The position numbers and the translations under genes were made by a program. DNA of 46,604 bases from Escherichia phage vB_EcoS-UDF157lw. Each line of letters opens with the position of its first letter. Positions within the stretch are counted from its first letter, which is position 1. Shown here piece by piece: positions 3,058 to 25,755 of the stretch. The notes below the pieces were generated by a model, which was not told the DNA's origin, did no database searches, and saw only the letters and a program-made list of their open reading frames with translations. Where the stretch lies: the sequence record OQ243221. One strand, written 5' to 3'.

Positions 3058-3297
3058 ATGTTCGGACTTACTCAACCACAATTTAATGCAGTTCGCGCCC
3101 AAGCTAAGAAACTTAACGAGGCAGTGGATAAGCTGACAAGCAAGCAGAAGCAGGATAATGACATCATGAAGGCGATTATCTGTGAGTTTCATAGCCCAGT
3201 CAGTACAATCATCGAGAAGATGAAGTTTGTTTGGGTTGCAGGCTATCTTGCTGGTCGCGTAGGTAAGCGTGAAGATGGGGAGCAGATTTATGACTAA
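3058..3297 (+). CDS. Hypothetical protein (79 aa)
   Basis: ORF in track; tightly packed with flanking genes. Confidence 0.5.
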   Translation: MFGLTQPQFNAVRAQAKKLNEAVDKLTSKQKQDNDIMKAIICEFHSPVSTIIEKMKFVWVAGYLAGRVGKREDGEQIYD

Positions 3298-3484
3298 ATC
3301 ACTAGGGAAAGTCAGATGCATTGTGTCTTACAATGATAAGAAGTTCAAAACTGGTAAATCTTACAGCATTTTGTCATCACCCGCATATGGTTGGGTTAAA
3401 TGTGAGTCAGAAGATGGGTGTATAGAGATGGTTAAAGATGGCAATGACATTGAGTTTGGTTACTTTGAGGTATTTTATGACTGA
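3290..3484 (+). CDS. Hypothetical protein (64 aa; start moved to internal ATG)
   Basis: ATG at 3290 overlaps the upstream stop (ATGACTAA); the track start at 3269 would overlap 29 nt. Confidence 0.45.
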   Translation: MTKSLGKVRCIVSYNDKKFKTGKSYSILSSPAYGWVKCESEDGCIEMVKDGNDIEFGYFEVFYD

Positions 3485-3541
3485 GCTATCAATCTGGTTC
3501 CTGGCTGGCATGTTGACGTGGATTTATTTCGTCGTCATGGC

Positions 3542-3570
3542 TTGACGAAAATGTTAAAAGTGGTTAGTAT
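3542..3570 (+). promoter_or_regulatory. Candidate sigma70-type promoter (TTGACG, 17 nt, TAGTAT) upstream of the tRNA region
   Basis: Hexamers and 17-nt spacing read directly; lies in a 286-bp non-coding gap. Confidence 0.3.
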
Positions 3571-3770
3571 TAACCACGTAGACGGCAATGACCGTAACGC
3601 TCATCGCGGAGATGCAAGCCGATAGCCGGGCTGGATAAAGATACGAGGCAAATAAAACCGCAGTTAGACATTGAGTGCTTAGCATAGCGCACGCCTTAAT
3701 GCAGTAAGTCGGACTTGACCTTCCGAGGATTGTGAAACCTCCCCGCATTCGGTAAGCGGGACTCATTCTA

Positions 3771-3846
3771 GTTCTGCTGGCGTAACAGGATAACGCAGAG
3801 ACCTCCTAAGTCTCAGTTACTGGTTCGAGTCCAGTGCGGAACACCA
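3771..3846 (+). tRNA. tRNA-Arg (anticodon CCU, reads AGG)
   Basis: Hand-folded cloverleaf: acceptor GTTCTGC/GCGGAAC (one G-U), D-arm GCGT/ACGC with GG in loop, anticodon stem GAGAC/GTCTC with loop CTCCTAA (U33, CCT, A37), T-arm ACTGG-TTCGAGT-CCAGT, discriminator A, encoded CCA. Confidence 0.85.
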
Positions 3847-3862
3847 AGCATGGAGCATCCTA

Positions 3863-4048
3863 GTGAATAACTACGAAGTCCGTTTAACTTCCCGCCTAAT
3901 GGGTCGGCAATGCAAATCTTGCCAGCAATCCTACGAAGGTAGGTTCATTGCTAAAAGCCCTGAAGAAGCAGTTGCAGCCGCAAAGGCAGCATTTAATATT
4001 GACCTGACAGTTCACAAGGTCAGCGTTGATAAAGTATCCCTCGTTTGA
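3863..4048 (+). CDS. Hypothetical protein (61 aa, GTG start)
   Basis: ORF in track; GGAG 7 nt upstream of GTG; followed by a strong terminator. Confidence 0.35.
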   Translation: MNNYEVRLTSRLMGRQCKSCQQSYEGRFIAKSPEEAVAAAKAAFNIDLTVHKVSVDKVSLV

Positions 4049-4076
4049 GATTGGTCATCTCGCAATGCAGTACTTT

Positions 4077-4100
4077 GCCCTCCTTGTGAGGGCTTTTTTT
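4077..4100 (+). terminator. Rho-independent terminator
   Basis: GCCCTC-cttgt-GAGGGC hairpin followed by TTTTTTT. Confidence 0.7.
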
Positions 4101-4147
4101 CGTCCATAGTCATGGTACAATGACTTTTAAAACAGGAGGAATATCAA

Positions 4148-4663
4148 ATGTCAGAAGAGAAAAAGATTCACCAGAAGATTGGCAACTTCAAGGAGCTATA
4201 CAATAAGAAGTATGGCGACATTGCCAATCTAAAGATTAACCACAGGTACACTCCTGAGCAGGTATTCGACATGGCCGTAAGGTATTTCAGCTGGGCTGAA
4301 GAGCAAGCGATTAAGGCCATTGAAACGGCGAGCTTTCAGGGTGTTGTAACGGAAAACCTTGTTCATAAGCCACGAATATTTACGATAACTGGATTCCAAC
4401 TTTTCTGCGGCGTTGGTCATAATGCCATCAGTAAATGGCGCTCTTCGCCTGGATTTGATGAGGTGATGGAGTTTGTGGATTCGGTAATCTTTGAGCAGAA
4501 GTATCAGCTTGGCGTTAACAACATCATCAACCCTGGACTGATTGGCAAAGACCTTGGCATCGATAAGCCGCAAGAGGTTAACATCAACAACGCTTCTAAT
4601 GCGGCAGTGAACGATGAAGAAGCGATCAAGGCTGCTCTCGAATCAGTAATTGATAAGCTATAG
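4148..4663 (+). CDS. Putative terminase small subunit (171 aa)
   Basis: Position immediately upstream of the terminase large subunit; strong RBS aggagga; own promoter-like region after terminator. Assignment is positional. Confidence 0.5.
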   Translation: MSEEKKIHQKIGNFKELYNKKYGDIANLKINHRYTPEQVFDMAVRYFSWAEEQAIKAIETASFQGVVTENLVHKPRIFTITGFQLFCGVGHNAISKWRSSPGFDEVMEFVDSVIFEQKYQLGVNNIINPGLIGKDLGIDKPQEVNINNASNAAVNDEEAIKAALESVIDKL

Positions 4664-4703: not shown

Positions 4704-4728
4704 CATTTAATCAATGTTAGGAGGGTTT

Positions 4729-5217
4729 ATGAATTGGCATGATGAATTTGATTATGATGATGGGCTGCTTTACTGGAAGTGCAGCTTAAAAAATGGCTCA
4801 AGAAAGAAAGGCCACGTTGCTGGTAATATTGACGCAAGCGAAGGTTATGTGAACATAAATTTAAAGACTGGAAAGGTTAAAGCTCACCGTGTTATATGGG
4901 AGATGTTTAACGGTAAAATACCTGACGGAATGGAAATTGACCACATCAACCATGACAGAAGCGACAACAGAATTGATAACTTGAGAATGGTTACTAGGTC
5001 AGAGAACCAAAAGAATAAGAGTAGGTTCAAGAACAACACTTCAGGAATATCAGGTGTAACATGGTGTAGTCGCCATTGCAAATGGAGGGCCAGAATCATG
5101 ATTAACGGAAAGTCAAAGAATCTAGGTAGATTTGACACAATAGAAGCTGCGGCAAAGGCTCGCTCAGACGCTGTAGACGCTCTCGGTTTTCACAAGAATC
5201 ACGGAGATAGAAATTAA
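4729..5217 (+). CDS. HNH homing-type endonuclease with AP2-like DNA-binding domain (162 aa)
   Basis: Motifs EIDHINHDRSDNRIDNLRMVTRSENQ (HNH) and GVTW...KWRARI...LGRF (AP2-like). Start moved to ATG 4729, which follows RBS taggaggg. Confidence 0.8.
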   Translation: MNWHDEFDYDDGLLYWKCSLKNGSRKKGHVAGNIDASEGYVNINLKTGKVKAHRVIWEMFNGKIPDGMEIDHINHDRSDNRIDNLRMVTRSENQKNKSRFKNNTSGISGVTWCSRHCKWRARIMINGKSKNLGRFDTIEAAAKARSDAVDALGFHKNHGDRN

Positions 5218-6779
5218 TGATTATATGGGATGAATTAACCAATCAGGAGAGGCTGGCCATTAAGGCAATTTCAGAGCACAGCTTCGAAGGGTTCTTGCGC
5301 TGCTGGTTCTCAATCACTCAGGGGCAGAAGTTCATTATGAACTGGCATGCGAAATACCTTTGCCGGATTGTTGATGAGATTATTGAGGGCAAAAGGAAGA
5401 ACACGATAATCAACGTTGCTCCTGGCGCCTCTAAAACGGAGCTGTTCAGCATCCACTTTCCTGTATATAGCATGATAAAGCTGGGCAAGGTAAGGAATCT
5501 AAACCTTAGCTTTGCCGACACGCTGGTTAAGAGGAACTCAAAGAGAGTCAGGGATTTGATTAGTTCAAGTGAGTTTCAGAGTTTATGGCCTTGCAAGTTC
5601 GGAACATCAAGGGATGATGAGATACAGGTACTTGATGATTCCGGTAGGGTAAGGTTTGAGTCAATATCCAAGGCTATGGGGTCACAGATTACTGGTAGTC
5701 GTGGTGGTTATATTACCGACTCATATAGCGGGTGTATTATGTTGGATGATTGCGAGAAACCCGCAGATATGTTTAGTAAGGTTAAGCGCGAGTCCGTACA
5801 TACAACTCTAACAAACACAGTTCGCTCTCGTAGGGCTAGCTCAGTAAAAGGTAAGGAAACTCCTGTAATATCTATTCAGCAGCGATTACATGTTAATGAT
5901 GCAACGTGGTTGATGAAAGAGGGCGGCATGGGCATGGAATTTGACGTGATTAAGATTCCAGCTTTAGTTACGGAGGAATACGCCAACGAGCTTCCTGATT
6001 GGATTCGTGATCAGTTTTGTAAGGATGTTCTCTCATCTGAATACATAGAGCGAGATGGTGTTAAATACTATAGCTACTTCCCGCAAAAGGAGTCAGTTCA
6101 TGACATAATGAAGCTATGGGATCAAGATAGCTACACCTTCATGAGTCAGTATCTTCAAGAGCCAGTAGCCTTAGGCGGAAACCTGATTAACGTAGATTGG
6201 TTTGTTCGTCTTGACGAGAACAATAGGCCGCCAGTCAAGTATGACTACCGTTTCATTACGGCTGATACTGCCATGACTACTAAGAGTTATAGTGACTACT
6301 CAGTATTCCAGCTATGGGGGCGCAAAGATAACAGGCTTTATCTTCTGGATATGGTAAGGGGTAAATGGGAAGCACCTGAACTTGAGCAAACTCTTCTGGA
6401 CTTTGAGAGTAAGCATAGAGCAGCTAGTAAGACAGATGGTATATTGCGCAAGGTTATTATCGAGAAGAAAGCGTCTGGAATAGGACTTATCCAGTCGGCG
6501 GGTCGGGTAATGCGAACTCCTATCGAGCCTTTCGTTCCAGATACAGATAAGTTAACCAGGGTGATGAGCGCACTGCCACAGATTAAAGCTGGTAACGTAG
6601 TTCTGCCTGACTCTGCGCCATGGCTTACCTCGCTATTAACCGAGTTCTCGGCGTTCACTGCTGACGATTCTCATCCCCATGATGACATTGTGGATACGAC
6701 AACAATGGCCATCAACTGTGAATTGAACTTGAGTGACGATCCGAGAGCCCGCTTAATGAGGCTAGCTGGAGTTAAGTAA
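5217..6779 (+). CDS. Terminase large subunit (520 aa)
   Basis: Size, position before portal, deviant Walker A (APGASKTE) and acidic nuclease-like C-terminal half; start overlaps HNH stop (TAATG). Confidence 0.8.
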   Translation: MIIWDELTNQERLAIKAISEHSFEGFLRCWFSITQGQKFIMNWHAKYLCRIVDEIIEGKRKNTIINVAPGASKTELFSIHFPVYSMIKLGKVRNLNLSFADTLVKRNSKRVRDLISSSEFQSLWPCKFGTSRDDEIQVLDDSGRVRFESISKAMGSQITGSRGGYITDSYSGCIMLDDCEKPADMFSKVKRESVHTTLTNTVRSRRASSVKGKETPVISIQQRLHVNDATWLMKEGGMGMEFDVIKIPALVTEEYANELPDWIRDQFCKDVLSSEYIERDGVKYYSYFPQKESVHDIMKLWDQDSYTFMSQYLQEPVALGGNLINVDWFVRLDENNRPPVKYDYRFITADTAMTTKSYSDYSVFQLWGRKDNRLYLLDMVRGKWEAPELEQTLLDFESKHRAASKTDGILRKVIIEKKASGIGLIQSAGRVMRTPIEPFVPDTDKLTRVMSALPQIKAGNVVLPDSAPWLTSLLTEFSAFTADDSHPHDDIVDTTTMAINCELNLSDDPRARLMRLAGVK

Positions 6780-8827: not shown

Positions 8828-9938
8828 AATGCGTTATGATAGCGCCAAGGTAAAAGCCCGTTTCGATGAGAACGGTTTTCTCGTGGACACCCCAGTGGTT
8901 GCTCGCGTAGGTGTACAAACCTACTATATGCCAGATGGTTCAGAGCGCCGAGAGTTCCGTCCGGCTTCAGAGGTTTTTAAAGCCGATTCGCTGCAAAGTT
9001 ATCAGGGTAAGCCGCTAACTCTTGGCCACGTGGTTGTCAACTCTGAAAATGCTAAAGAGGTGGTTGTTGGTTCTGTGTCTGGCTCAGCTATGCGTCAGGA
9101 CTCCGCAGTGATTGTTCCTCTTACCGTTTACGACAAGGAAGCAATTGAGAAGGCCAAGTCTGGCGTTGCTGGTGAGCTCTCTGTTGGCTACAACACTGTT
9201 GACATTGAGTCTCCTGGTTGGGGTAGTAATGAAACGGGTGAGTACAAGCTTGATGGAGAGTACGCAAGCCAGGATGAGATTCCTGCTGATTGGGTACGCT
9301 TTGATGCGCTACAGACGAATATCGTTGTTAATCATATCGCACTCGTATATAAAGGTCGCGCAGGTATTGCTAAACTCAATCTGGACGCGGAACAGGAAAA
9401 CCCGTATACTGATACCGTTCAATCAAATAAAGAGGATAAATTGATGATTAAGATTAAACTCGATGGCGAACAGGAGTTCGAAATCGCCCCGGAAGTTGCT
9501 AAGCATATCGAAGCTGTTAAGGCTGATGCAGAGCAGGCTAAAGCTAAAGCTGACACTCTGGAAGCTGAGCGCGATGCGCTTAAAGCTAAAGTTGATGCAA
9601 TGCCAGCAGAGATCGAGAAAGCAGTTGCTAAAGCGAAAGCAGACGCAGACGCGCTCGCAACTCTGGTTGCTGTTGCTGCTGAAGCTGGTGTTAAAGCTGA
9701 TGGTCTGGATGCTAAAGGTATTAAAGTAGCTTACGTTAAAGAAGTTTCCGGCCTGGATGTTTCTGAGAAATCTGACGCGTATATTGACGCAGCGTTCGAC
9801 ATTGCTAAAGAATCTGATAAAATGGCTGAAGTTCGTAAGGCTACCGTAGCCTCCGATAAATCTGACAGCAAAGAAGAGTTGACGCTTATTGATCCGCGCG
9901 CTCGAATTGCTAAATCTAAATCCAAGAAGGAGAAATAA
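8817..9938 (+). CDS. Putative prohead protease / scaffolding protein (373 aa)
   Basis: N-terminal globular domain followed by a long Ala/Lys/Glu-rich predicted coiled coil (AEQAKAKADTLEAERDALKAKVDA...), typical of scaffolds; position before capsid genes. Confidence 0.6.
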   Translation: MKSKMRYDSAKVKARFDENGFLVDTPVVARVGVQTYYMPDGSERREFRPASEVFKADSLQSYQGKPLTLGHVVVNSENAKEVVVGSVSGSAMRQDSAVIVPLTVYDKEAIEKAKSGVAGELSVGYNTVDIESPGWGSNETGEYKLDGEYASQDEIPADWVRFDALQTNIVVNHIALVYKGRAGIAKLNLDAEQENPYTDTVQSNKEDKLMIKIKLDGEQEFEIAPEVAKHIEAVKADAEQAKAKADTLEAERDALKAKVDAMPAEIEKAVAKAKADADALATLVAVAAEAGVKADGLDAKGIKVAYVKEVSGLDVSEKSDAYIDAAFDIAKESDKMAEVRKATVASDKSDSKEELTLIDPRARIAKSKSKKEK

Positions 9939-16429: not shown

Positions 16430-16452
16430 CCTCCCTTTGTGGAGGTTTTTTT
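16430..16452 (+). terminator. Hairpin plus T-run immediately upstream of tape measure gene (attenuator-like)
   Basis: CCTCC-ctttgt-GGAGG followed by TTTTTTT; the downstream GGAGG serves as the tape-measure RBS. Confidence 0.5.
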
Positions 16453-16463
16453 ATGGAGGTTAC

Positions 16464-19400
16464 ATGGCAGAATTTGCAGGTATCACACTTGGCGTTGACG
16501 TTCGCCAGGTTGACCAGGGCACAAAGTCCCTGCAAGAATTTAAACGTGCCAATGAACAGGCGGCAGCTGGAGTTAGCGAGTTCGTTAATGCTGAGCTGGT
16601 TGCGAAGAATCAGGCTCGCGACACTGCAAGGTATCTTTCTGAGCAGAGAAGTGCTTTTCAGTCGCTTCAGTCTGCAATTGATCCAACAGCTTCAAAATTG
16701 CGAAAACTTCAAGATGCAGCAAGTTCTCTTGATAAGGCCTTCTCCGCAGGGGTTGTTCCAGAGGCTGAGTTTTACAGGCTTGGTGAAGCATTAGAAACGC
16801 AAACAAATAGGTTAATAAGGTCTAGGTCAGCATTAACTGAGGAGGGTAGGGCGGCTATAGAAGCTGCAAAAAATAAAGAGTCCGCTGAGAGGCAAGCGCA
16901 ATCATTTATTAGGTCGCTTCAAGCGCAGGCTGATGCAGCGACATTAAGTAGGGATGAGTTCTTAAAGTTAAGGGCGGCACGGCTTGGAGTTAGCGATCAG
17001 GCAGCACCAATAATAGATAGAATAACACAGGCATCAAGTAACAATACTAACGCTATAGCAAATCAAAGTAGGGCGTTTCAGGCGGCTGGGATATCGGCAG
17101 GTCAGTACAATCAGGCCTTAAGGTTCCTTCCTGTACAGATCAATGATATCACTAGCTCGATTGCTAACGGTATGCCTTTATTTATGGTGCTTACCCAGCA
17201 AATACCGCAGATTACAGATTCATTTGGTGGATTTTCAAATACATTATCAGCTGCGCAAGGTGCAGTTATAGATTATGTATCATCAATAGGAGAGCTGAGA
17301 AGTTCATTTGCTGATGTTAGGACTCTTGGTGATGAGGCTATCTTAAGGTTTGGTCGTGCTGCAACTATATTTGGTGGCGCGATAATTGCTTCATTAGCTG
17401 TTCTTGGTAAAGCCGCTTACGACTCATTTATTGAGGTTAGGCAACTTAATAACGCAATAATTGAAACTGGAAGGTCGTCGACTTTATCAGTTGCCGCTAT
17501 CAAGGATTACGCTGATCAGCTAAATGAAACATCAAGGGCAACAAAAGGTTCTATTGGTGACATTTACCAGTCGCTAGTATCAAACGGAAGGCTTACTGTT
17601 AGTCAGATTAACTTAATCGCTAAGTCTGTTGCTAACCTTTCAGCTGTTAGTTCAAGGTCTGCGGAATCAATAATATCTGACTTTGATAAGATAGCAAAAG
17701 ATCCAGTTAAGGGGCTGATAGAGTTAGATAAGCAATTTAACTTTCTTAGCGAAGGGCAGTTGACCCTAGTTAACAACCTAAAAGAAACGGAAGGGCAAAC
17801 AGCAGCAGTAACAGCAGCTTTAGAAATATTTGCAGCTAGAAATGAGTCAGTTACAAAGCAGATTGAAGGCTCGCTTACACCTCTTGAATTGGCTTGGGGC
17901 GATTTCCGTAAGTTCGTTTCAGACACATGGGATGCTATAGGTGACAGGACTATAGGAGCTCTAAACCTATTTACTGACGTTATAGCTGCGACTATTGAGC
18001 AAATAAGACTGATAATTGGCACTGGCGACAAGCTAATAAATGATTTCGTAATACGCGGAATAGAGGCTTTACAAAAGATACCAGGAGCATCTGGCGTTGG
18101 TAATGGAATAGCCGAACAACTAAGGAAGGATAATGACGCAATAGAAAAGGAAAACATAAGGCTAGCTAAATCTATCGCTGATAGGGATGCAAGGGTTCGC
18201 AGGGGCGAGACTGGTTACTTGAGTGTTGGAGAGGGTTCAGAAAGTCAAACTGGAACTTCTGATAGAGATTCAGAATCAAGAAGAAAGGCTTTGGCCGATG
18301 AGATTAAAGCAATTGAGGAGAGAAGTAAAAAGACAAAATCTGGAGCAAAAGAAGAGAGGGATTTGACTATAAGTTATGAGTCTGGCGTTCTAGCTCTTCA
18401 GGCTCAGCTTAAGGTTCTTCAGGAGCACCGCCAGATTAGTGATGTTATCAGTAACGAACGCAAGCAGCTTTTTGCGGAGGAAGCTAAGTTTGCAATCCTT
18501 AATGAAAGGCTTGCAGACGGAACCATCACAAAGCAACAGCGATCATTACTGTTGCAGCAGGATAAAATCTTAGGACTTGCTCGCGAGAAGGCTGAGATTG
18601 GCGACCAGATTGTGCTGCAAGAAAGGGCCAATAAACTTCTTGATGACAACATCAAGAAGAATCGGCAGATTAACGCTGAAGCGGCATCAATTAGTGTTGG
18701 AGCAGGATTATCTCAGCGCGAAGCGGAAAGGCGGCGTGAGTTGGCGGCGCTAGAAGCCCAGCAAATTTCTAAAGGTGGCTCCGTAGATGACACTGACTTC
18801 CAGGCTTTACTTCAGGCTCGTCAGAATTTCTACAATCAGGAAGATGCATTACGTGGTAACTGGCTGGCTGGCGTTAAATCTGCGTTTGCTGAGACGGCTG
18901 ATGAATTGGCAAACTTTAATCAGATTGGTTCCGAGCTAGCCATGAGTGCCTTTAACGGATTGACTGACCAGATAACAAACCTGGTAACTACTGGAGAAGC
19001 TAGCTTCCGTGAGTTTACCGCATCGATTCTGAAGCAGATTGCACGCATTGCAACGCAGCTACTTTTAATTAAGGCGATTGAATCAACCATCTCCAGTTTT
19101 GGCGGTAGTGGTGGTGCAATTGGCTCTATTGGTAGCGCATTTGGTTTCGCTTCTGGCGGTTATACTGGAAACGGTGGTAAGTACGAGCCAGCTGGCACGG
19201 TGCATAAAGGTGAATTCGTCTTTACGAAGGAGGCAACCTCAAGGATTGGCGTTGATAACCTTTATAAGTTAATGCGCGGATACGCAAATGGTGGAGTGGT
19301 TGGTGCTGGTCCTGGCTATGCGACTGGCGGGCTTGTTGGTGGAAGTAACGTTAATGTTGGTGGAGTGAATGTTACCGTTCAGACAGGTCTTGGCGGTGGT

Positions 19401-19517
19401 GGCGGTAATGACGCTAAACAGTTAGAATCTGGTATCAGGGTTATCATCGCGGAAGAGATTACTCAGTCCTTCCAGCAGGGCGGAACGGCTTACCAGTTCT
19501 TGCGAGGTTATAGTTAA
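16464..19517 (+). CDS. Tail tape measure protein (1017 aa from ATG 16464)
   Basis: Length, alpha-helical Ala/Gln/Glu-rich composition, Gly-rich C-terminal region; position after chaperones. The track start 16437 is TTG; ATG 16464 follows GGAGG. Confidence 0.85.
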   Translation: MAEFAGITLGVDVRQVDQGTKSLQEFKRANEQAAAGVSEFVNAELVAKNQARDTARYLSEQRSAFQSLQSAIDPTASKLRKLQDAASSLDKAFSAGVVPEAEFYRLGEALETQTNRLIRSRSALTEEGRAAIEAAKNKESAERQAQSFIRSLQAQADAATLSRDEFLKLRAARLGVSDQAAPIIDRITQASSNNTNAIANQSRAFQAAGISAGQYNQALRFLPVQINDITSSIANGMPLFMVLTQQIPQITDSFGGFSNTLSAAQGAVIDYVSSIGELRSSFADVRTLGDEAILRFGRAATIFGGAIIASLAVLGKAAYDSFIEVRQLNNAIIETGRSSTLSVAAIKDYADQLNETSRATKGSIGDIYQSLVSNGRLTVSQINLIAKSVANLSAVSSRSAESIISDFDKIAKDPVKGLIELDKQFNFLSEGQLTLVNNLKETEGQTAAVTAALEIFAARNESVTKQIEGSLTPLELAWGDFRKFVSDTWDAIGDRTIGALNLFTDVIAATIEQIRLIIGTGDKLINDFVIRGIEALQKIPGASGVGNGIAEQLRKDNDAIEKENIRLAKSIADRDARVRRGETGYLSVGEGSESQTGTSDRDSESRRKALADEIKAIEERSKKTKSGAKEERDLTISYESGVLALQAQLKVLQEHRQISDVISNERKQLFAEEAKFAILNERLADGTITKQQRSLLLQQDKILGLAREKAEIGDQIVLQERANKLLDDNIKKNRQINAEAASISVGAGLSQREAERRRELAALEAQQISKGGSVDDTDFQALLQARQNFYNQEDALRGNWLAGVKSAFAETADELANFNQIGSELAMSAFNGLTDQITNLVTTGEASFREFTASILKQIARIATQLLLIKAIESTISSFGGSGGAIGSIGSAFGFASGGYTGNGGKYEPAGTVHKGEFVFTKEATSRIGVDNLYKLMRGYANGGVVGAGPGYATGGLVGGSNVNVGGVNVTVQTGLGGGGGNDAKQLESGIRVIIAEEITQSFQQGGTAYQFLRGYS

Positions 19518-22318: not shown

Positions 22319-22368
22319 TTTAGTGTAGAATGGCACAAATGGTTAAACAAACAACGAGGTTATATGAT

Positions 22369-25300
22369 ATGGCCGATTTGCCAAAGATTTATGGAAGCAA
22401 GGGTGGTAGCAAGAAGCCGCACACGCCTGTAGAGCAAGAAGATAACCTGATTTCACTAAACAAGATTAAGGTGCTACTGGCTGTAGCTGATGGAGAGGTT
22501 GATTCTAGTTTCTCGCTCAAGGATGTTTACCTTGCTGACGTTCCGGTGCAAAACCAGGATAACTCATTCAACTATGAAGGTGTGACAGCTGAGTTTCGCG
22601 CCGGCACTCAATCCCAAGATTACATCGCAGGACTAGATGGCGCGGCATCAGAGATTCAGGTTAGTCGTGAAATTAACAACGACACACCTTACATCATCGC
22701 AGTTAACAACAGTCAGCTATCAGCAATCCGCGTTAAACTGTTCTGGCCTCGGCTCGTTAAGCAAGAAGAGAATGGAGATTTAAATGGAACAACATGTGAA
22801 TATGCAATCGATTTATCAGTTAATGGCGCAGCGTACACGGAATATACCAGAGGCGTGGCTAACGGTAAAACTACAACAGGTTACGACCGCAGCATCAGGG
22901 TTAACCTACCAGCCGAGTTTAGCAGCGCTCTTGTTCGTATTAGGAAGTTAACGCCAGACTCAACAAGTAGCACTCTGGTTAACGGAATGCAGATTACAAC
23001 CTATCAGGAAGTAATCGACGCTAAGTTCCGCTACCCTCTTACGGCACTTGTTTATGTGGAGTTCAGTTCTGACCTGTTCCCTAATGGCATCCCAACGATA
23101 GCCATTAAGAAAAAGTGGAAGCTTATCCGTGTGCCGACAAACTACAATCCAGAGACAAGAACTTATAGCGGAGCATGGGATGGAACCTTTAAAATGGCAT
23201 GGTCTGACAACCCGGCCTGGGTTTTATATGACCTGGTGGTTAGCCAGCGTTACGGTTTAGATCAGCGAGAACTTGGTGTTGAGATTGATAAATGGGGTCT
23301 GTATGAAGCAGCGCAATTCTGCGACCAGATGGTTCCTGATGGTAAGGGTGGAATGGAGCCGCGATATACTTGTAACGTTGTCATTCAGCAGAAAGTGGAA
23401 GCGTATCAGCTTATTCGTGACATCTGTTCTATCTTCCGCGGTTTAACCTTCTATGATGGTGAGCAAATCGGGATTGTTGTAGACAGGCCGCGCCAGCCAA
23501 GCTATGTGTTCACTAATGATAACGTTGTTGATGGATTGTTTAACAGGACATTCTCTAGCGACAAGAGCCTTTACACGACAGCCAACGTTCAGTTTGATGA
23601 CGAGCAGAACAACTACCAGCAGGACGTCGAGCCAGTATTCGACTTAGAAGCAACACGCCGATTTGGTTACAACCCTGTAGACTTGACTGCAATTGGCTGC
23701 GTAAGGCGAAGCGAGGCTAACCGCCGTGGTCGCTGGTTGCTGAAAACAAACCTTCGCAGTGAAACGGTAACGTTCACAACTGGCCTCGAAGGCATGATTC
23801 CTATGATTGGTGATGTAATTGCTGTTAATGACCAGGCATGGTCAAGCAACTACACATTAAACCTTTCTGGTCGAATTGTTGAAGCTACAGGTTTGCAGGT
23901 CTTCGTACCATTCGCTATTGATGCTGACCCTGGTGACAGGATTTTAATCAACAAGCCAGATGGGAGCCCAGAGTACAGGACTATCGCTTCAGTATCTGCC
24001 GATAAGTTGACGCTTGAACTGAATACAGCATTCAGCTTCACACCTCAGCCGGATACGGTATTTGCAATCGACAAGCAGAATCTGGCGTTGCAGCAATACG
24101 TTGTGACAGGAATTCAAAAAGCAAACACGGACGGCGAGGATTCATTCCAGTACAGCATCACTGCGGTGCAGTATGACCCGAACAAGTATGACGAGATTGA
24201 CTATGGTGTGAATATTGACGACAGGCCAACAAGTATCGTTGACCCTGACAGGATTTTACCACCTGAAAATATCACCGTTACTAGTTACAGCAAGGTAGTT
24301 CAGGGTTTAAGCGTTGAGACGATGGTTATTGGTTACGACAAGGTGCAGTATGCGAAAACATACAACGTACAATGGCGTAAGAACAATGGTAACTGGATTA
24401 ACGTACCAGAGACGGCTAACACCGAGGTTGATATTGAAGGAATTTACGCTGGCATCTACGACGTAAGGGTTCGTGCCGTAACTGACCAGAAATCAGTATC
24501 TGCCTGGTCTGATATAACGACAGTTAGCCTGACCGGCAAGATTGGGGAACCTTCGGCGCCGCCTGTAATTACCGCATCTGATGATGAGGTTTTCGGGATT
24601 AGGGTTAAGTGGGGTTTTCCTACTGATTCAGCTGACACTGCGTACACTGAGCTTCATCAGGTTCCTGATAATGGTGACGGTACATACAATCCAGAGAGCG
24701 CATCGCTGCTTACACTGGTTCCGTATCCTCAGTACGAATACTGGCACACCACTTTACCAGCAGGTAACGTGAGGTGGTACAGAGCGAGGATTATTGACAG
24801 GATAGGTAACGTATCGCCATGGACTGATTTTGTAAGGGGCATGGCATCTGACGACGTAAGTGCAATAATTGGTGATATCAAGGTTGATATCGAAAACTCT
24901 GATGGTTACAAGTACCTACTTCAGAACGCCATTGATGCAAACACGGATATCCAGAATCAGGCTGAGGCAATTATAGAGAACGCCCTGGCAAACGATACTG
25001 ACGTTCGCGTTATGAAGCGCGAGAATGGCGCAAGGAAGGCTGAATATCGTCAGGCTGTAAGTTTGATTGCTGATGAAACTCAGGCCCGTGTGGACGCTCT
25101 CACGCAGCTTAAAGCGCAGATTGATGATGAGATTGTTGGTCAGATTACGACAATTGAAACCGCGCTTGCTACGGAGACCGAAGCCAGGGCTACAGCTGAT
25201 ACTCAATTAAGCGCAAGGCTTGGTGATAACGAGGCGGCTTTGAATCAGAAGCTTGACTCTTATGCCACTGTCGAAGGGGTTGGTGTTCAGTACGGCGTCA

Positions 25301-25755
25301 AGCTAGGCCTTAAGTACAATGGGGTTGAGTATGGCGCTGGTATGAGCATGGAGTTAACAGGTAGCGGCGGTAATGTTCGCAGTCAGTTCATTTTCGATGC
25401 TAACAGGTTCGCAATCAGCAACGGCATTAGCTCTGGTTCAGGTCAGTGGTCGCTGCCTTTCGTTGTGGAGAATAACCAGGTGTTCATTCAGAGCGCGGTG
25501 ATTCAGGATGGTTCAATTACTAACGCGAAGATTGGTAACAGGATTCAATCAAACAACTATGTTGCTGGTAGTGCTGGTTGGGCAATTGATAAATCTGGTT
25601 TTGCTGAGTTAAGTAACGCTACCGTTCGCGGTAGTTTGTACGCTAACAATGGTAACTTCGCGTTTAACGGAACCAACAATACTGTCGTAATAAACAATAA
25701 CGGCATAACTGTTAATTTACCAAATGGAGGTAGGGTAGTGGTTGGAGTATGGTAA
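22369..25755 (+). CDS. Central tail fibre / host specificity protein (lambda J-like, about 1128 aa)
   Basis: Length and position; N-terminus ...KGGSKKPHTPVEQEDNL resembles J-type N-termini; start moved to ATG 22369 with GAGG RBS. Confidence 0.85.
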   Translation: MADLPKIYGSKGGSKKPHTPVEQEDNLISLNKIKVLLAVADGEVDSSFSLKDVYLADVPVQNQDNSFNYEGVTAEFRAGTQSQDYIAGLDGAASEIQVSREINNDTPYIIAVNNSQLSAIRVKLFWPRLVKQEENGDLNGTTCEYAIDLSVNGAAYTEYTRGVANGKTTTGYDRSIRVNLPAEFSSALVRIRKLTPDSTSSTLVNGMQITTYQEVIDAKFRYPLTALVYVEFSSDLFPNGIPTIAIKKKWKLIRVPTNYNPETRTYSGAWDGTFKMAWSDNPAWVLYDLVVSQRYGLDQRELGVEIDKWGLYEAAQFCDQMVPDGKGGMEPRYTCNVVIQQKVEAYQLIRDICSIFRGLTFYDGEQIGIVVDRPRQPSYVFTNDNVVDGLFNRTFSSDKSLYTTANVQFDDEQNNYQQDVEPVFDLEATRRFGYNPVDLTAIGCVRRSEANRRGRWLLKTNLRSETVTFTTGLEGMIPMIGDVIAVNDQAWSSNYTLNLSGRIVEATGLQVFVPFAIDADPGDRILINKPDGSPEYRTIASVSADKLTLELNTAFSFTPQPDTVFAIDKQNLALQQYVVTGIQKANTDGEDSFQYSITAVQYDPNKYDEIDYGVNIDDRPTSIVDPDRILPPENITVTSYSKVVQGLSVETMVIGYDKVQYAKTYNVQWRKNNGNWINVPETANTEVDIEGIYAGIYDVRVRAVTDQKSVSAWSDITTVSLTGKIGEPSAPPVITASDDEVFGIRVKWGFPTDSADTAYTELHQVPDNGDGTYNPESASLLTLVPYPQYEYWHTTLPAGNVRWYRARIIDRIGNVSPWTDFVRGMASDDVSAIIGDIKVDIENSDGYKYLLQNAIDANTDIQNQAEAIIENALANDTDVRVMKRENGARKAEYRQAVSLIADETQARVDALTQLKAQIDDEIVGQITTIETALATETEARATADTQLSARLGDNEAALNQKLDSYATVEGVGVQYGVKLGLKYNGVEYGAGMSMELTGSGGNVRSQFIFDANRFAISNGISSGSGQWSLPFVVENNQVFIQSAVIQDGSITNAKIGNRIQSNNYVAGSAGWAIDKSGFAELSNATVRGSLYANNGNFAFNGTNNTVVINNNGITVNLPNGGRVVVGVW

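What the first reader, a model, noticed from the sequence alone, without database searches (positions are those of the whole stretch)
3485..3846. tRNA-Arg(CCU) preceded by a 286-bp structured non-coding region with a candidate sigma70 promoter
A well-formed 76-nt tRNA with anticodon CCU (rare AGG codon) carries an encoded CCA end. Upstream lies a candidate TTGACG-N17-TAGTAT promoter and about 200 nt of non-coding sequence rich in short palindromes (TGCTtAGCA, AGCCgGGCT, CCCGC...GCGGG); this may be a tRNA leader or an independent small RNA.
Basis: seen in the sequence. Interest (0 to 1): 0.5.

Follow-up and report, generated by a model that had tools for sequence, protein, structure and literature searches.

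The report
Phage tRNA-Arg behind a conserved leader RNA
A T1-like coliphage carries a real tRNA for the rare arginine codon AGG, which the phage itself uses heavily, and the DNA just upstream encodes a promoter plus a folded non-coding RNA that is conserved across T1-like phages and that I could not find described anywhere.

Summary
The window is a Rogunavirus (T1-like, Drexlerviridae) genome.

**tRNA.** The tRNA-Arg(CCU) at 3771-3846 is real and already annotated in relatives. AGG is the phage's commonest Arg codon (12.2 per 1000 codons).

**Upstream 286 bp.** It is not all non-coding, and its single-sequence fold is no more stable than shuffles.
- 3477-3545 is a conserved 22-codon hydrophobic micro-ORF.
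- The TTGACG-17-TAGTAT promoter (3542-3570) is conserved.
- About 3577-3770 is a leader RNA.

**The leader is a family-wide element.** It occurs at the same position in every Drexlerviridae lineage sampled, most of which have no tRNA there.
- Its 5' helices P1 and P2 are 98% paired, and 8 of 9 pairs show compensatory changes.
- Its last hairpin, with loop C(C/G)GUAA, is 100% paired.
- In one lineage the RNA ends in a terminator-like hairpin. In others the next gene's ribosome-binding site follows it. In four groups tRNA genes sit about 10 nt after it.

**Novelty and function.** No Rfam family, GenBank annotation or paper that I found describes the leader. Its function is unknown. My leading guess is a promoter-proximal regulatory RNA acting on transcription elongation or termination. 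A processed stable small RNA is the main rival.

The parts
3477..3545 (+). Conserved 22-codon hydrophobic micro-ORF (MTELSIWFLAGMLTWIYFVVMA). Its ATG overlaps the stop of the upstream gene (ATGA). Its stop codon overlaps the -35 hexamer.
   Evidence: Alignment A1. Variable sites by codon position are 3/1/9, with 12 synonymous and 4 conservative changes. A homologous peptide, MSELTIWFIAGLITWAYFLIV, occurs in Braunvirinae. A GAGG ribosome-binding site lies at 3467-3470.
3542..3570 (+). Sigma-70-type promoter: -35 TTGACG (3542-3547), 17-nt spacer, -10 TAGTAT (3565-3570). The inferred transcription start is about 3576-3578.
   Evidence: Consensus scan. In 10 Rogunavirinae genomes the -10 is invariant, the -35 is nearly so, and the spacer varies. 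An equivalent promoter precedes all 35 elements examined. The start site is inferred, not measured.
3577..3770 (+). Leader / non-coding RNA, the Rogunavirinae version of a Drexlerviridae-wide structured RNA.
   Evidence: The first 85 nt are 92-98% identical between genera. That is as conserved as the tRNA and more than terS. Homologous elements occur in other subfamilies. There is no Rfam match.
3577..3615 (+). 5' domain: CGUAGAC start motif, helix P1 (3582-3585 with 3592-3595), linker AACGC, helix P2 (3601-3605 with 3611-3615; the first pair is U-C in this phage).
   Evidence: Covariance model R1 places it here, but at only 4.9 bits in the window and 13.9 bits in close relatives. Across the family P1 and P2 are 98.2% paired, and 8 of 9 pairs change on both sides.
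3617..3655 (+). Rogunavirinae-specific, nearly invariant segment. It holds a possible hairpin AGCC(3617-3620)/GGCT(3629-3632) and the purine-rich AUACGAGGC (3641-3649), which sits near the 5' end in other subfamilies.
   Evidence: RNAalifold on 10 genomes. Almost no variation exists, so the pairing is untested. The motif's relocation is seen by comparison with T1- and Braun-type elements.
3656..3719 (+). Variable, indel-rich spacer of the leader.
   Evidence: It is 41-63% identical between genera and carries indels of 11 to 33 nt.
3725..3741 (+). Penultimate hairpin GAGG-AUUGUGAAA-CCUC, with a conserved 9-nt loop.
   Evidence: It is 100% paired, and 3 of 4 pairs change on both sides in a structure-blind MAFFT alignment of 6 lineages.
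3742..3760 (+). Terminal hairpin CCCGC-AUUCGGUAA-GCGGG. Its loop motif C(C/G)GUAA is the 3' hallmark of most of the family; it is absent in Webervirus.
   Evidence: 19 distinct sequences are 100% paired, 3 of 5 pairs have 3-4 pair types, and slid controls are 20-42% paired. G-U pairs in L027 and L049 fit only the + strand.
3761..3770 (+). Tail ACUCAUUCUA between the hairpin and the tRNA. The AUUC motif also follows the hairpin in phages without a tRNA. RNase P is presumed to cut at 3770/3771.
   Evidence: Alignments. The spacing from hairpin to first tRNA is 9-11 nt in 10 of 11 tRNA-bearing loci checked (33 nt in L027). RNase P cleavage is inferred from general tRNA biology.
3771..3846 (+). 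tRNA-Arg, anticodon CCU, encoded CCA end.
   Evidence: ARAGORN. Rfam RF00005 at 57.6 bits. It is annotated in Rogue1, AHP24, BECP10, Sd1 and Sf12.
3863..4048 (+). ORF61, a member of phrog_2919 (invariant MGRxCxxC...TH). It is the one gene found downstream of the element in every lineage sampled.
   Evidence: Clustering of ORFs between the element and terS in 16 loci. phrog_2919 E 1.3e-28. 96 homologues, all unnamed.
4077..4100 (+). Intrinsic terminator (GCCCUC-CUUGU-GAGGGC followed by U7), the likely end of the promoter-leader-tRNA-ORF61 unit. It lies just before terS (4148).
   Evidence: Terminator scan.

Best explanation
**What it is.** Host RNA polymerase starts at a conserved sigma-70 promoter (3542-3570). 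It transcribes, in order:
- a leader RNA of about 195 nt (about 3577-3770);
- tRNA-Arg(CCU) (3771-3846);
- the small gene ORF61;
- then the terminator at 4077.

**The tRNA.** It is cargo. RNase P cleavage at its 5' end matures it and at the same stroke releases the leader. The tRNA supplies decoding of AGG, which is rare in E. coli but is this phage's most used arginine codon.

**The leader.** It is not merely a tRNA leader. It is the local version of a promoter-plus-structured-RNA element present across Drexlerviridae. The element has:
- a single-stranded 5' motif, CGUAGAC plus a purine-rich AAGAGG/ACGAGG;
- helices P1 and P2;
- a variable middle;
- one or two 3' hairpins with conserved loops (AUUGUGAAA; C(C/G)GUAA).

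**How it most likely works (about 40% for this step).** It acts as a promoter-proximal regulatory RNA. A conserved factor, or the transcribing polymerase itself, recognises its conserved loops and linear motifs. This controls read-through of terminators into the downstream ORF61 and packaging genes, in the manner of nut or put sites.

**Shown:** the tRNA, promoter conservation, the RNA helices, the distribution, and the codon demand.
**Inferred:** the start site, RNase P release, and the regulatory mechanism.
For: **tRNA:**

**Codon demand:** AGG makes up 147 of 607 Arg codons, 12.2 per 1000 codons, in 41 long ORFs. It is concentrated in terL, the 1026-aa ORF 16437-19517 and the 1141-aa ORF 22330-25755. 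From my own knowledge, E. coli uses AGG at about 1-2 per 1000.

**Promoter:** conserved in 35 of 35 elements, with variable spacers.

**Element independent of the tRNA**
- CEB_EC3a, P818, Shfl1 and TLS carry it at the same position.
- Model R1 hits 46 loci, including groups not in its seed, at E 1e-9 to 1e-16.
- R1 also hits KP36, a Yersinia phage and phage A120.
- BLAST counts of records per type are 30, 141, 76, 64, 89 and 349.
- P818 and L072 bridge the Rogunavirinae 3' half to R1-positive 5' domains.

**Structure**
- P1 and P2 are 98.2% paired, with 8 of 9 pairs covarying. Slid controls are 18-45% paired.
- The terminal hairpin is 100% paired with 3 of 5 pairs covarying.
- Both 3' hairpins are 100% paired with 5 of 9 pairs covarying in a structure-blind alignment.
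- G-U pairs fix the strand.

**For the regulatory reading**
- The element tolerates tRNA genes inserted between it and the next ORF: 1 to 6 tRNAs, 9-11 nt after the hairpin in 10 of 11 loci.
- In the JohannLBurckhardt-type lineage it ends in a 7-9 bp G+C-rich stem followed by a 4-8 nt U-rich tract that abuts the next ribosome-binding site.
- Seven strong + strand terminators punctuate the downstream late genes.
- The TLS re-annotation found only three intergenic sigma-70 promoters but 21 terminators (PMC11447400).
Against: - There is no expression data. The start site, RNase P release and stability of the leader are all inferred.
- Single-sequence folding energy is not better than shuffles.
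- The window's own 5' domain scores only 4.9 bits with R1. Homology of that part rests on synteny, the shared TAACCACGTAGAC start and bridging sequences.
- Nothing resembles nut, put or any Rfam family, and no N- or Q-like partner was found.
- ORF61's predicted fold is a generic beta-beta-alpha-beta and gives no clear function.
- The tool's terminator scan did not call the terminator-like end in the JohannLBurckhardt-type lineage, because the hairpin loop exceeds the scan's 8-nt limit. That reading is mine.
- Late gene modules may each have their own promoter. There is, for example, an extended -10 just before terS, and promoter-like sites at 9796, 14928 and 15737. If so, antitermination is not required.
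- The Webervirus version is only about 60 nt and lacks P2 and the C(C/G)GUAA hairpin.
Confidence: 0.6

Rival explanations
1. The leader is a trans-acting, stable small RNA such as a decoy, sponge or protein-sequestering RNA. Its 3' end would be made by RNase P where a tRNA follows, by a terminator in the JohannLBurckhardt-type lineage, or by RNase E at the conserved AUUC tail elsewhere. It would act away from its own transcript.
For: - In one lineage it is a discrete unit of 96-117 nt, from promoter to terminator-like hairpin.
- Loops are conserved while stems covary.
- In Rogunavirinae the leader stays 92-98% identical although a tRNA separates it from the next ORF.
- The 5' motif (C)CGUAGAC and the loop motif CCGUAAG resemble each other, as two sites for one binder might.
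Against: - No target or partner was identified.
- It has no similarity to E. coli sequences.
- Most lineages, this window included, have no terminator or U-tail.
- In T1-, TLS- and Webervirus-type phages the next gene's ribosome-binding site follows within 10-20 nt, as for a 5' UTR.
Confidence: 0.25
2. The element is simply the 5' UTR of the ORF61 (phrog_2919) operon. It would set mRNA stability or translation, possibly as an operator for autoregulation by ORF61 protein.
For: - phrog_2919 lies downstream of the element in all 16 lineages examined.
- In Webervirus, P818, L057 and L070 it follows directly.
- An SD-like AAGAGG sits near the 5' end.
Against: - In this window and three other groups, tRNA genes lie between leader and ORF. 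tRNA processing would sever the two, yet the leader remains strongly conserved.
- In T1- and TLS-type phages another gene, phrog_6666, intervenes.
Confidence: 0.12
3. The conserved sequence works at the DNA level, as a packaging (pac) site or replication origin next to the terminase genes. Its hairpins would be incidental.
For: It lies about 400-700 bp upstream of terS in every lineage. It is very highly conserved.
Against: - Stems covary while loops stay fixed, and G-U pairs fit only the + strand. A conserved promoter points into the element.
- terS is related to P22 gp3. The aligned region of phage epsilon34 carries an annotated pac site inside that gene.
- The TLS paper assigns pac by similarity to the P22 pac sequence.
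- There is no GC-skew switch near 3.5 kb.
Confidence: 0.03
4. The upstream region is decayed coding sequence or decayed tRNA genes with no function of its own. Candidates are the 35-aa frame containing INHVDGNDRN (HNH-like), the 70-aa minus-strand ORF, or pseudo-tRNAs.
For: - ORFs of 35-70 aa exist on both strands, and some GenBank records annotate them.
- tRNA content at this site varies between phages.
Against: - The 35-aa frame has an in-frame stop in Sd1 and mostly non-synonymous changes. It has no Pfam match even at E of 1 or below.
- Indels are not multiples of three.
- ARAGORN finds no further tRNA on the + strand even at a 60% threshold. Rfam's tRNA model finds only tRNA-Arg.
- The 5' 85 nt are as conserved as the tRNA.
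Confidence: 0.02

Closest known systems
Phage-encoded tRNAs for rare codons (Rfam RF00005); tRNA-Arg as annotated in Rogue1, AHP24, AHS24, AKS96, Sd1 and Sf12
   Same: It has a canonical cloverleaf, anticodon CCU and an encoded CCA. It sits at the same position and is 95-100% identical to already annotated genes. PMC4070988 reports 'one arginyl-tRNA' in these phages. It matches a phage codon bias towards AGG.
   Different: Nothing about the tRNA itself is new. New here are the quantified AGG demand, and the finding that Braunvirinae carry a homologous tRNA with anticodon UCU at the same site.
Lambda nut sites and HK022 put RNAs (promoter-proximal RNA elements that make RNA polymerase terminator-resistant); also the lambda PR'-tR' late leader ('6S' transcript) read through under Q. 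These comparisons rest on my own knowledge.
   Same: - It is the first thing transcribed from a strong promoter, on the same strand as and upstream of the packaging and morphogenesis genes.
- Those genes are interrupted by intrinsic terminators.
- It has a conserved linear motif plus hairpins with conserved loops and covarying stems.
- In one lineage the unit ends in a terminator-like hairpin just before the next gene.
   Different: It has no sequence or structure similarity to boxA/boxB or put. No N, Q or Nun homologue was identified. Antitermination is not demonstrated. The element is larger and more modular (60-250 nt), and tRNA genes are inserted behind it.
Stable small RNAs co-transcribed with phage T4 tRNAs (species 1 and 2, rnaC and rnaD), and regulatory by-products of tRNA processing such as E. 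coli 3'ETS-leuZ. These comparisons rest on my own knowledge.
   Same: A non-coding RNA shares a precursor with tRNA and would be released by the tRNA-processing nucleases.
   Different: Here the RNA predates the tRNA and exists without it in most lineages. There is no evidence yet that it accumulates. No similarity was tested, because these RNAs gave no Rfam match.
Candidate structured RNA motifs found by comparative genomics in phages (Rfam entries of the Weinberg/Breaker type)
   Same: It is defined the same way: a conserved intergenic position, covarying helices, conserved loops and unknown function.
   Different: None of the 4227 Rfam 15 families matches any of nine representative elements (the window and eight related loci), even at permissive thresholds.

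Membership tests
tRNA (Rfam RF00005) | Cloverleaf covariance-model score above the family's gathering threshold | tested here: met
   57.6 bits against a gathering score of 29, E 5.8e-10, full-length match at 3771-3843.
tRNA (Rfam RF00005) | An independent tRNA predictor calls the gene and its anticodon | tested here: met
   ARAGORN reports tRNA-Arg, anticodon cct at position 35, 3771-3846. It is the only tRNA in the window.
tRNA (Rfam RF00005) | Aminoacylation and use in translation | not testable with these tools
   Only indirect support: AGG is 24% of the phage's Arg codons.
Sigma-70 promoter | -35 and -10 hexamers with 16-18 nt spacing | tested here: met
   TTGACG-17-TAGTAT matches 9 of 12 consensus positions. 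The match alone is not above chance (9 sites against 5.8 +/- 2.5).
Sigma-70 promoter | Hexamers conserved while the spacer drifts | tested here: met
   In 10 Rogunavirinae genomes the -10 is invariant, the -35 is nearly so, and the spacer varies. All 35 elements across subfamilies have one.
Sigma-70 promoter | A mapped transcription start | not testable with these tools
   No expression data were available, and no relevant paper was found.
Drexlerviridae leader RNA (family defined here) | 5' domain CGUAGAC-AnAAGAGG-P1-CAACG-P2 recognised by model R1 | tested here: inconclusive
   The window scores 4.9 bits, E 0.059 in 501 nt, at the right place. Close relatives score 13.9 bits. The Rogunavirinae version lacks 9 nt of the 5' linear motif. 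Other subfamilies score 20-73 bits.
Drexlerviridae leader RNA (family defined here) | Terminal hairpin with loop A-N(1-3)-C(C/G)GUAA and covarying 5-bp stem | tested here: met
   3742-3760 is CCCGC-AUUCGGUAA-GCGGG. The family is 100% paired with 3 of 5 pairs covarying.
Drexlerviridae leader RNA (family defined here) | Synteny: after the early small genes, before phrog_2919 and terS, on the same strand, preceded by a sigma-70 promoter | tested here: met
Intrinsic terminator at the end of the leader (as in the JohannLBurckhardt-type lineage) | G+C-rich stem followed by a U-tract | tested here: not met
   In the window the terminal hairpin is followed by ACUCAUUCUA and the tRNA, not by a U-run. 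The nearest terminator is at 4077.
Lambda nut / HK022 put antitermination RNAs | boxA/boxB or the put two-stem architecture, and genetic dependence of terminator read-through on the element | not testable with these tools
   No reference model for put or nut was compared. No Rfam family of any kind matched. The resemblance is positional and architectural only.
Known riboswitch, leader or sRNA families (Rfam 15) | A covariance-model match | tested here: not met
   Nothing matched in 3200-4200 at E of 10 or below except the tRNA and chance-level hits elsewhere. Nothing matched in 8 related loci.
Pseudo-tRNA / decayed tRNA array | A residual cloverleaf detectable at relaxed thresholds | tested here: not met
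   ARAGORN at 80% and 60% thresholds finds no + strand tRNA in 3540-3770. The Rfam tRNA model finds only tRNA-Arg.

The most novel reading that the evidence does not exclude
T1-like phages (Drexlerviridae) all carry an undescribed regulatory RNA that is the first product of one of their few host-type promoters. Acting alone or with the conserved small protein ORF61 (phrog_2919), it reprograms host RNA polymerase so that it reads through the many intrinsic terminators of the packaging and morphogenesis region. This would be an RNA-based processive antitermination system analogous to HK022 put but unrelated in sequence. The highly transcribed site has repeatedly captured tRNA genes.
Probability: 0.2. 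Interest if true: 0.8.

Novelty: new member of a known kind. Interest (0 to 1): 0.58.

Why it matters
**The tRNA is ordinary.** It is already annotated, and the phage's tenfold enrichment of AGG now gives a clear rationale for it.

**The leader is the new part.** It is a covariation-supported structured RNA with its own conserved promoter. It occurs in an estimated 750 sequenced T1-like phage genomes, summed over six types of the element. That number is an upper estimate, because duplicate GenBank/RefSeq records and cross-type hits were not removed. Hosts include Escherichia, Shigella, Klebsiella, Salmonella, Citrobacter and Yersinia. The RNA is absent from Rfam, from the GenBank annotations I inspected, and from the papers I could search.

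**Why that could matter.** How T1-like phages organise transcription is an acknowledged open question. They have no polymerase or sigma factor of their own, few recognisable promoters and many terminators. A conserved promoter-proximal RNA at the head of the packaging region is a concrete, testable handle on that question. These phages are widely used in phage-therapy and defence-system studies.

**A practical point.** It also explains why tRNA genes in this family always sit at one spot. Annotation pipelines currently call spurious small ORFs across the element.

Tried and rejected
1. **Rfam.** I scanned the whole window at gathering thresholds, 3200-4200 at E of 10 or below, and 8 related loci at E of 1 or below. 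Only tRNAs and chance-level hits appeared.
2. **Single-sequence folding** of 3485-3770 on both strands gave non-significant z-scores of -0.35 and -0.69. Thermodynamics alone gives no support.
3. **HNH-remnant idea** for the frame containing INHVDGNDRN. There is no Pfam match, Sd1 has a stop codon in that frame, and substitutions are mostly non-synonymous. Rejected.
4. **The hairpin GTGGTTAgtatTAACCAC around the -10.** Changes in BECP10, e4/1c, EB49 and Opt-79 break it without compensation. I read it as promoter conservation, not structure.
5. **Pseudo-tRNA search** with ARAGORN at low thresholds found nothing.
6. **Host mimicry.** Three versions of the element gave no BLAST match in 5,426 complete E. 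coli genomes.
7. **Presence in bacterial genomes.** A degenerate pattern for the TLS-type 5' domain had 0 matches in one genome per GTDB species. It covers only one type of the element.
8. **IMG/VR exact-pattern and single-protein scans** returned only the already known isolates. The terS alignment scan was what worked.
9. **Origin idea.** There is no GC-skew switch near 3.5 kb.
11. **MAFFT alignments** of the 5' domain and terminal hairpin put gaps inside stems. I used a reduced seed plus covariance-model realignment and a fixed-register alignment instead. The covariance-model alignment leans towards the model's structure.
12. **Seven literature searches** found no description of the RNA.
13. 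**The terminator scan** did not call the terminator-like 3' ends of the L035 and L041 elements, because their loops exceed 8 nt. That reading rests on RNAfold structures and the U-tracts.
Full report
**What the window is.** The region 3200-4150 is 96-99% identical to Escherichia phages AKS96, C119, phiKP26, BECP10, AHP24, Rogue1 and JK06. These are Rogunavirus, family Drexlerviridae, the T1-like phages. The interval 3485-3770 is 100% identical to AHP24, AHP42 and AHS24.

**The tRNA.**
- ARAGORN finds one tRNA in the whole window: tRNA-Arg with anticodon CCT at 3771-3846.
- Rfam's tRNA model scores it 57.6 bits, against a gathering score of 29.
- The CCA end is encoded.
- The gene is annotated in Rogue1, AHP24, BECP10, Sd1 and Sf12. 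The paper on AHP24 and its relatives reports one arginyl-tRNA (PMC4070988). This part is real and already known.
In 41 long ORFs (12,054 codons), AGG is the most frequent arginine codon: 147 occurrences, 12.2 per 1000 codons, 24% of Arg codons.
- AGG is concentrated in the large late-region genes: 14 in terL, 32 in the 1026-aa ORF at 16437-19517 and 22 in the 1141-aa ORF at 22330-25755.
- From my own knowledge, AGG is among the rarest E. coli codons, at about 1-2 per 1000. A codon-supply role is therefore well motivated.

**Anatomy of the upstream 286 bp.** Aligning ten phages from five genera of Rogunavirinae splits the interval into parts that behave differently.

1. **3477-3545 is a micro-ORF.**
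   - It has 22 codons and encodes MTELSIWFLAGMLTWIYFVVMA.
   - Its ATG overlaps the stop of the upstream gene (ATGA), and a GAGG lies 6 nt upstream of the ATG.
   - Variable sites fall 3/1/9 on codon positions 1/2/3. Distinct codon changes are 12 synonymous against 4 conservative.
   - Braunvirinae carry a homologous peptide, MSELTIWFIAGLITWAYFLIV.
   - The first 61 nt of the 'non-coding region' are therefore coding.
2. **3542-3570 is the promoter,** TTGACG-17-TAGTAT.
   - The simple scan finds such sites at chance frequency.
   - Here, however, the -10 is invariant and the -35 nearly so, while the spacer varies.
   - The inverted repeat around the -10 (GTGGTTA/TAACCAC) is broken without compensation in four phages. 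The conservation there is promoter conservation, not structure.
3. **3571-3655 is nearly invariant.** It is 92-98% identical between genera. That matches the tRNA (82-97%) and exceeds terS (86-90%).
4. **3656-3719 is variable** and full of indels.
5. **3725-3760 holds two adjacent hairpins with 9-nt loops.** Their stems change by compensatory substitutions: GAGG/CCUC becomes GAGC/GCUC, and CCCGC/GCGGG becomes GCCGG/CCGGC.
6. **The tRNA follows 10 nt later.**

Single-sequence folding of the whole interval is no more stable than shuffled sequence.

**The leader is a family-wide element, not a tRNA appendage.** I looked upstream of terS in more distant Drexlerviridae. The same arrangement appears in each:
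- CEB_EC3a (Braunvirinae): promoter, then TAACCACGTAGAC..., ending in CCCGG-AGCCGUAA-CCGGG, then tRNA-Arg(UCU).
- P818 (Nouzillyvirus): the same two 3' hairpins, no tRNA.
- TLS (Tempevirinae): no tRNA.
- Shfl1 (Tunavirus, T1-like): no tRNA.

A terS-profile scan of IMG/VR gave 55 loci. A covariance model of the 5' domain was built from 14 T1-, TLS- and Nouzilly-type sequences. That domain runs CGUAGAC, AnAAGAGG, helix P1, CAACG, helix P2.
- The model hit 46 loci, including groups absent from its seed, at E 1e-9 to 1e-16. Braunvirinae scored about 1e-6.
- It also hit Klebsiella phage KP36 (Webervirus), which has a minimal version of about 60 nt. It also hit Yersinia phage YP10S2 and phage A120.
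- Rogunavirinae score weakly: 13.9 bits for relatives, and 4.9 bits for the window itself, in the correct place. They lack nine nucleotides of the 5' linear motif. The purine-rich AUACGAGGC instead appears after three hairpins, at 3641-3649.
- Their homology is carried by four things: synteny, the identical TAACCACGTAGAC start shared with Braunvirinae, the same P2 stem (GCAUC/GAUGC) as the T1-like L034, and bridging sequences. P818 and L072 have a strong R1 5' domain (57-58 bits) and a 3' half almost identical to that of EB49 and Sf12.

BLAST with one representative of each type finds 30, 141, 76, 64, 89 and 349 phage records. That sums to about 750. Duplicate GenBank/RefSeq records and cross-type hits were not removed. 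By comparison, 977 records have a related terS, a total that also includes P22-like phages.

**Evidence that it is a structured RNA on the + strand.**
- On the model-fitted alignment of 32 distinct 5' domains, P1 and P2 are 98.2% paired. Eight of nine pairs change on both sides. Registers slid by 1-3 columns are only 18-45% paired. The alignment leans towards the model's structure, which is a caveat.
- For the terminal hairpin I used a fixed-register alignment of 19 distinct sequences. All pairs form, three of five positions show 3-4 pair types, and slid registers give 20-42%.
- In a structure-blind MAFFT alignment of six lineages, both 3' hairpins are 100% paired, with five of nine pairs changed on both sides.
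- G-U pairs in P2 and in the terminal stem would be A-C mismatches on the other strand. The promoter also points this way.
- Loops are conserved while stems drift: GCGAUA in P2, AUUGUGAAA, and C(C/G)GUAA.
- The 5' motif (C)CGUAGAC and the terminal-loop motif CCGUAAG resemble each other as direct repeats. I cannot explain this.

**What follows the RNA differs by lineage.**
- In T1-, TLS- and P818-type phages, the ribosome-binding site of the next gene follows within 10-20 nt.
- In the JohannLBurckhardt-type group (L035, L038, L040-43, L067; 141 records), the last hairpin is a 7-9 bp G+C-rich stem with a large loop holding CCGUAAGAC. A 4-8 nt U-rich tract follows, and then the next ribosome-binding site comes immediately. 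This makes a discrete RNA of 96-117 nt with a terminator-like end. The scan tool does not call it, because it limits loops to 8 nt.
- In Rogunavirinae, Braunvirinae, L072 and L053, one to six tRNA genes follow. The first starts 9-11 nt after the hairpin in 10 of 11 loci and is tRNA-Arg (CCU or UCU, homologous to each other) except in Sd1, where tRNA-Trp precedes it.
- The tRNAs are therefore cargo parked behind a strong promoter. RNase P cleavage would both mature the tRNA and free the leader. That step is an inference.

**Neighbourhood.**
- One gene lies downstream of the element in all 16 lineages compared: ORF61 (3863-4048), a member of phrog_2919, with invariant MGRxCxxC...TH.
- It is followed in many phages by a DUF7299 membrane protein. 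A terminator (4077-4100 here) and then terS follow.
- One GenBank record names a homologue 'putative RNA polymerase inhibitor'.
- None of this is decisive.

**How it most likely works.** The shown parts are the tRNA, the conserved promoter, the conserved helices, the distribution and the codon demand. For the leader's own role I commit, at about 40%, to a promoter-proximal regulatory RNA that controls elongation or termination of its own transcription unit, in the manner of nut or put sites. My reasons:
- It is always the first thing transcribed from one of the few host-type promoters. The TLS re-annotation found only three intergenic sigma-70 promoters against 21 terminators (PMC11447400).
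- It always heads the strand that carries the packaging and morphogenesis genes. In this window those genes are punctuated by seven strong terminators between 4.0 and 16.5 kb.
- In one lineage it ends in a terminator that abuts the next gene.
- Its function survives insertion of tRNA genes between it and the next ORF. That argues against control at the ribosome-binding site.

**Rivals.**
- The main rival is a processed or terminated stable small RNA acting in trans (about 25%).
- A plain 5' UTR or operator for ORF61 is next (about 12%).
- DNA-level roles are unlikely. terS is related to P22 gp3, and the homologous region of phage epsilon34 carries an annotated pac site. There is no GC-skew switch nearby. 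The stems covary.
- Decayed coding sequence or decayed tRNA is also unlikely.

**Comparison with what is known, and novelty.**
- The tRNA is already known.
- The leader matches no Rfam 15 family.
- It is unannotated in the records I inspected, or overlaid with spurious small ORFs.
- It has no E. coli counterpart.
- It does not appear in any paper I could find.
- I classify it as a new member of a known kind: a comparative-genomics RNA motif or phage leader RNA. It may turn out to be mechanistically interesting.

**Limits.**
- There is no expression data.
- The window's 5' domain is only weakly recognised by the model.
- The Rogunavirinae-specific middle section is too invariant to test.
- The functional assignment is inference from position and architecture.

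Noticed in passing
window 1580, 2423, 4660, 19900, 29592, 35071, 37467, 38152, 38838, 40390 (+); 27060, 44448, 45608, 46443 (-), and others: There are 18 copies of the 21-nt direct repeat ATAGCACnnnTTGnTAAAA, against 2.3 expected by chance. They point mostly in the direction of transcription. The TLS paper describes the same repeat with unknown function (possible phage-specific promoter or operator).
   Followed up: partly
window 3477-3545: A conserved 22-codon hydrophobic micro-ORF (MTELSIWFLAGMLTWIYFVVMA) is translationally coupled to the upstream gene. It is unannotated in every GenBank relative I inspected. A homologue occurs in Braunvirinae.
   Followed up: yes
window 3863-4048: ORF61 (phrog_2919) lies downstream of the leader RNA in all lineages sampled. 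Its invariant MGRxCxxC...TH motif weakly resembles the GMxCxxC metal-binding motif of HMA domains. Its predicted fold is beta-beta-alpha-beta. One GenBank homologue is labelled 'putative RNA polymerase inhibitor'.
   Followed up: partly
window 4714-5217: An HNH-type homing endonuclease ORF, apparently with an AP2-like C-terminal part (my reading of the sequence; no domain search was run), is inserted between terS (4148-4663) and terL (5217-6779). One of the ATAGCAC repeats lies just upstream, at 4660.
   Followed up: no
window 4077-4140: A strong intrinsic terminator (4077-4100) is followed at once by an extended -10-like TGGTACAAT and the terS ribosome-binding site. terS may therefore have its own promoter.
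   Followed up: no
window 4077, 6792, 10452, 13104, 13445, 15730, 16428 (+): Seven strong + strand intrinsic terminators interrupt the packaging and morphogenesis genes. Several are bidirectional. Terminator-like sites are enriched: 26 against 15.2 +/- 4.3 in shuffles.
   Followed up: partly
L003 993-1066; L002 1042-1118; L005 1053-1145; L053 1329-1976; L024 2060-2158: The tRNA cargo behind the leader varies.
- Sd1 has an extra tRNA-Trp.
- EB49 has tRNA-Val(AAC).
- Opt-79 has an odd 93-nt tRNA-like call.
- An IMG/VR phage (L053) has six tRNAs: Arg, Ser, Ser, Asn, Trp and Met.
- CEB_EC3a has a 99-nt stretch matching the tRNA model at 41 bits that ARAGORN does not call.
   Followed up: partly
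window 3577-3583 and 3750-3757; same positions in related loci: The 5'-terminal motif (C)CGUAGAC and the terminal-loop motif C(C/G)GUAAG resemble each other as direct repeats. They are not complementary. They could be two sites for one binding factor. This is unexplained.
   Followed up: partly
L010 (phiJLA23) about 580-590: The GenBank record of phiJLA23 contains NN and an 11-nt gap inside the variable part of the leader. This is probably an assembly or sequencing problem, not biology.
   Followed up: no
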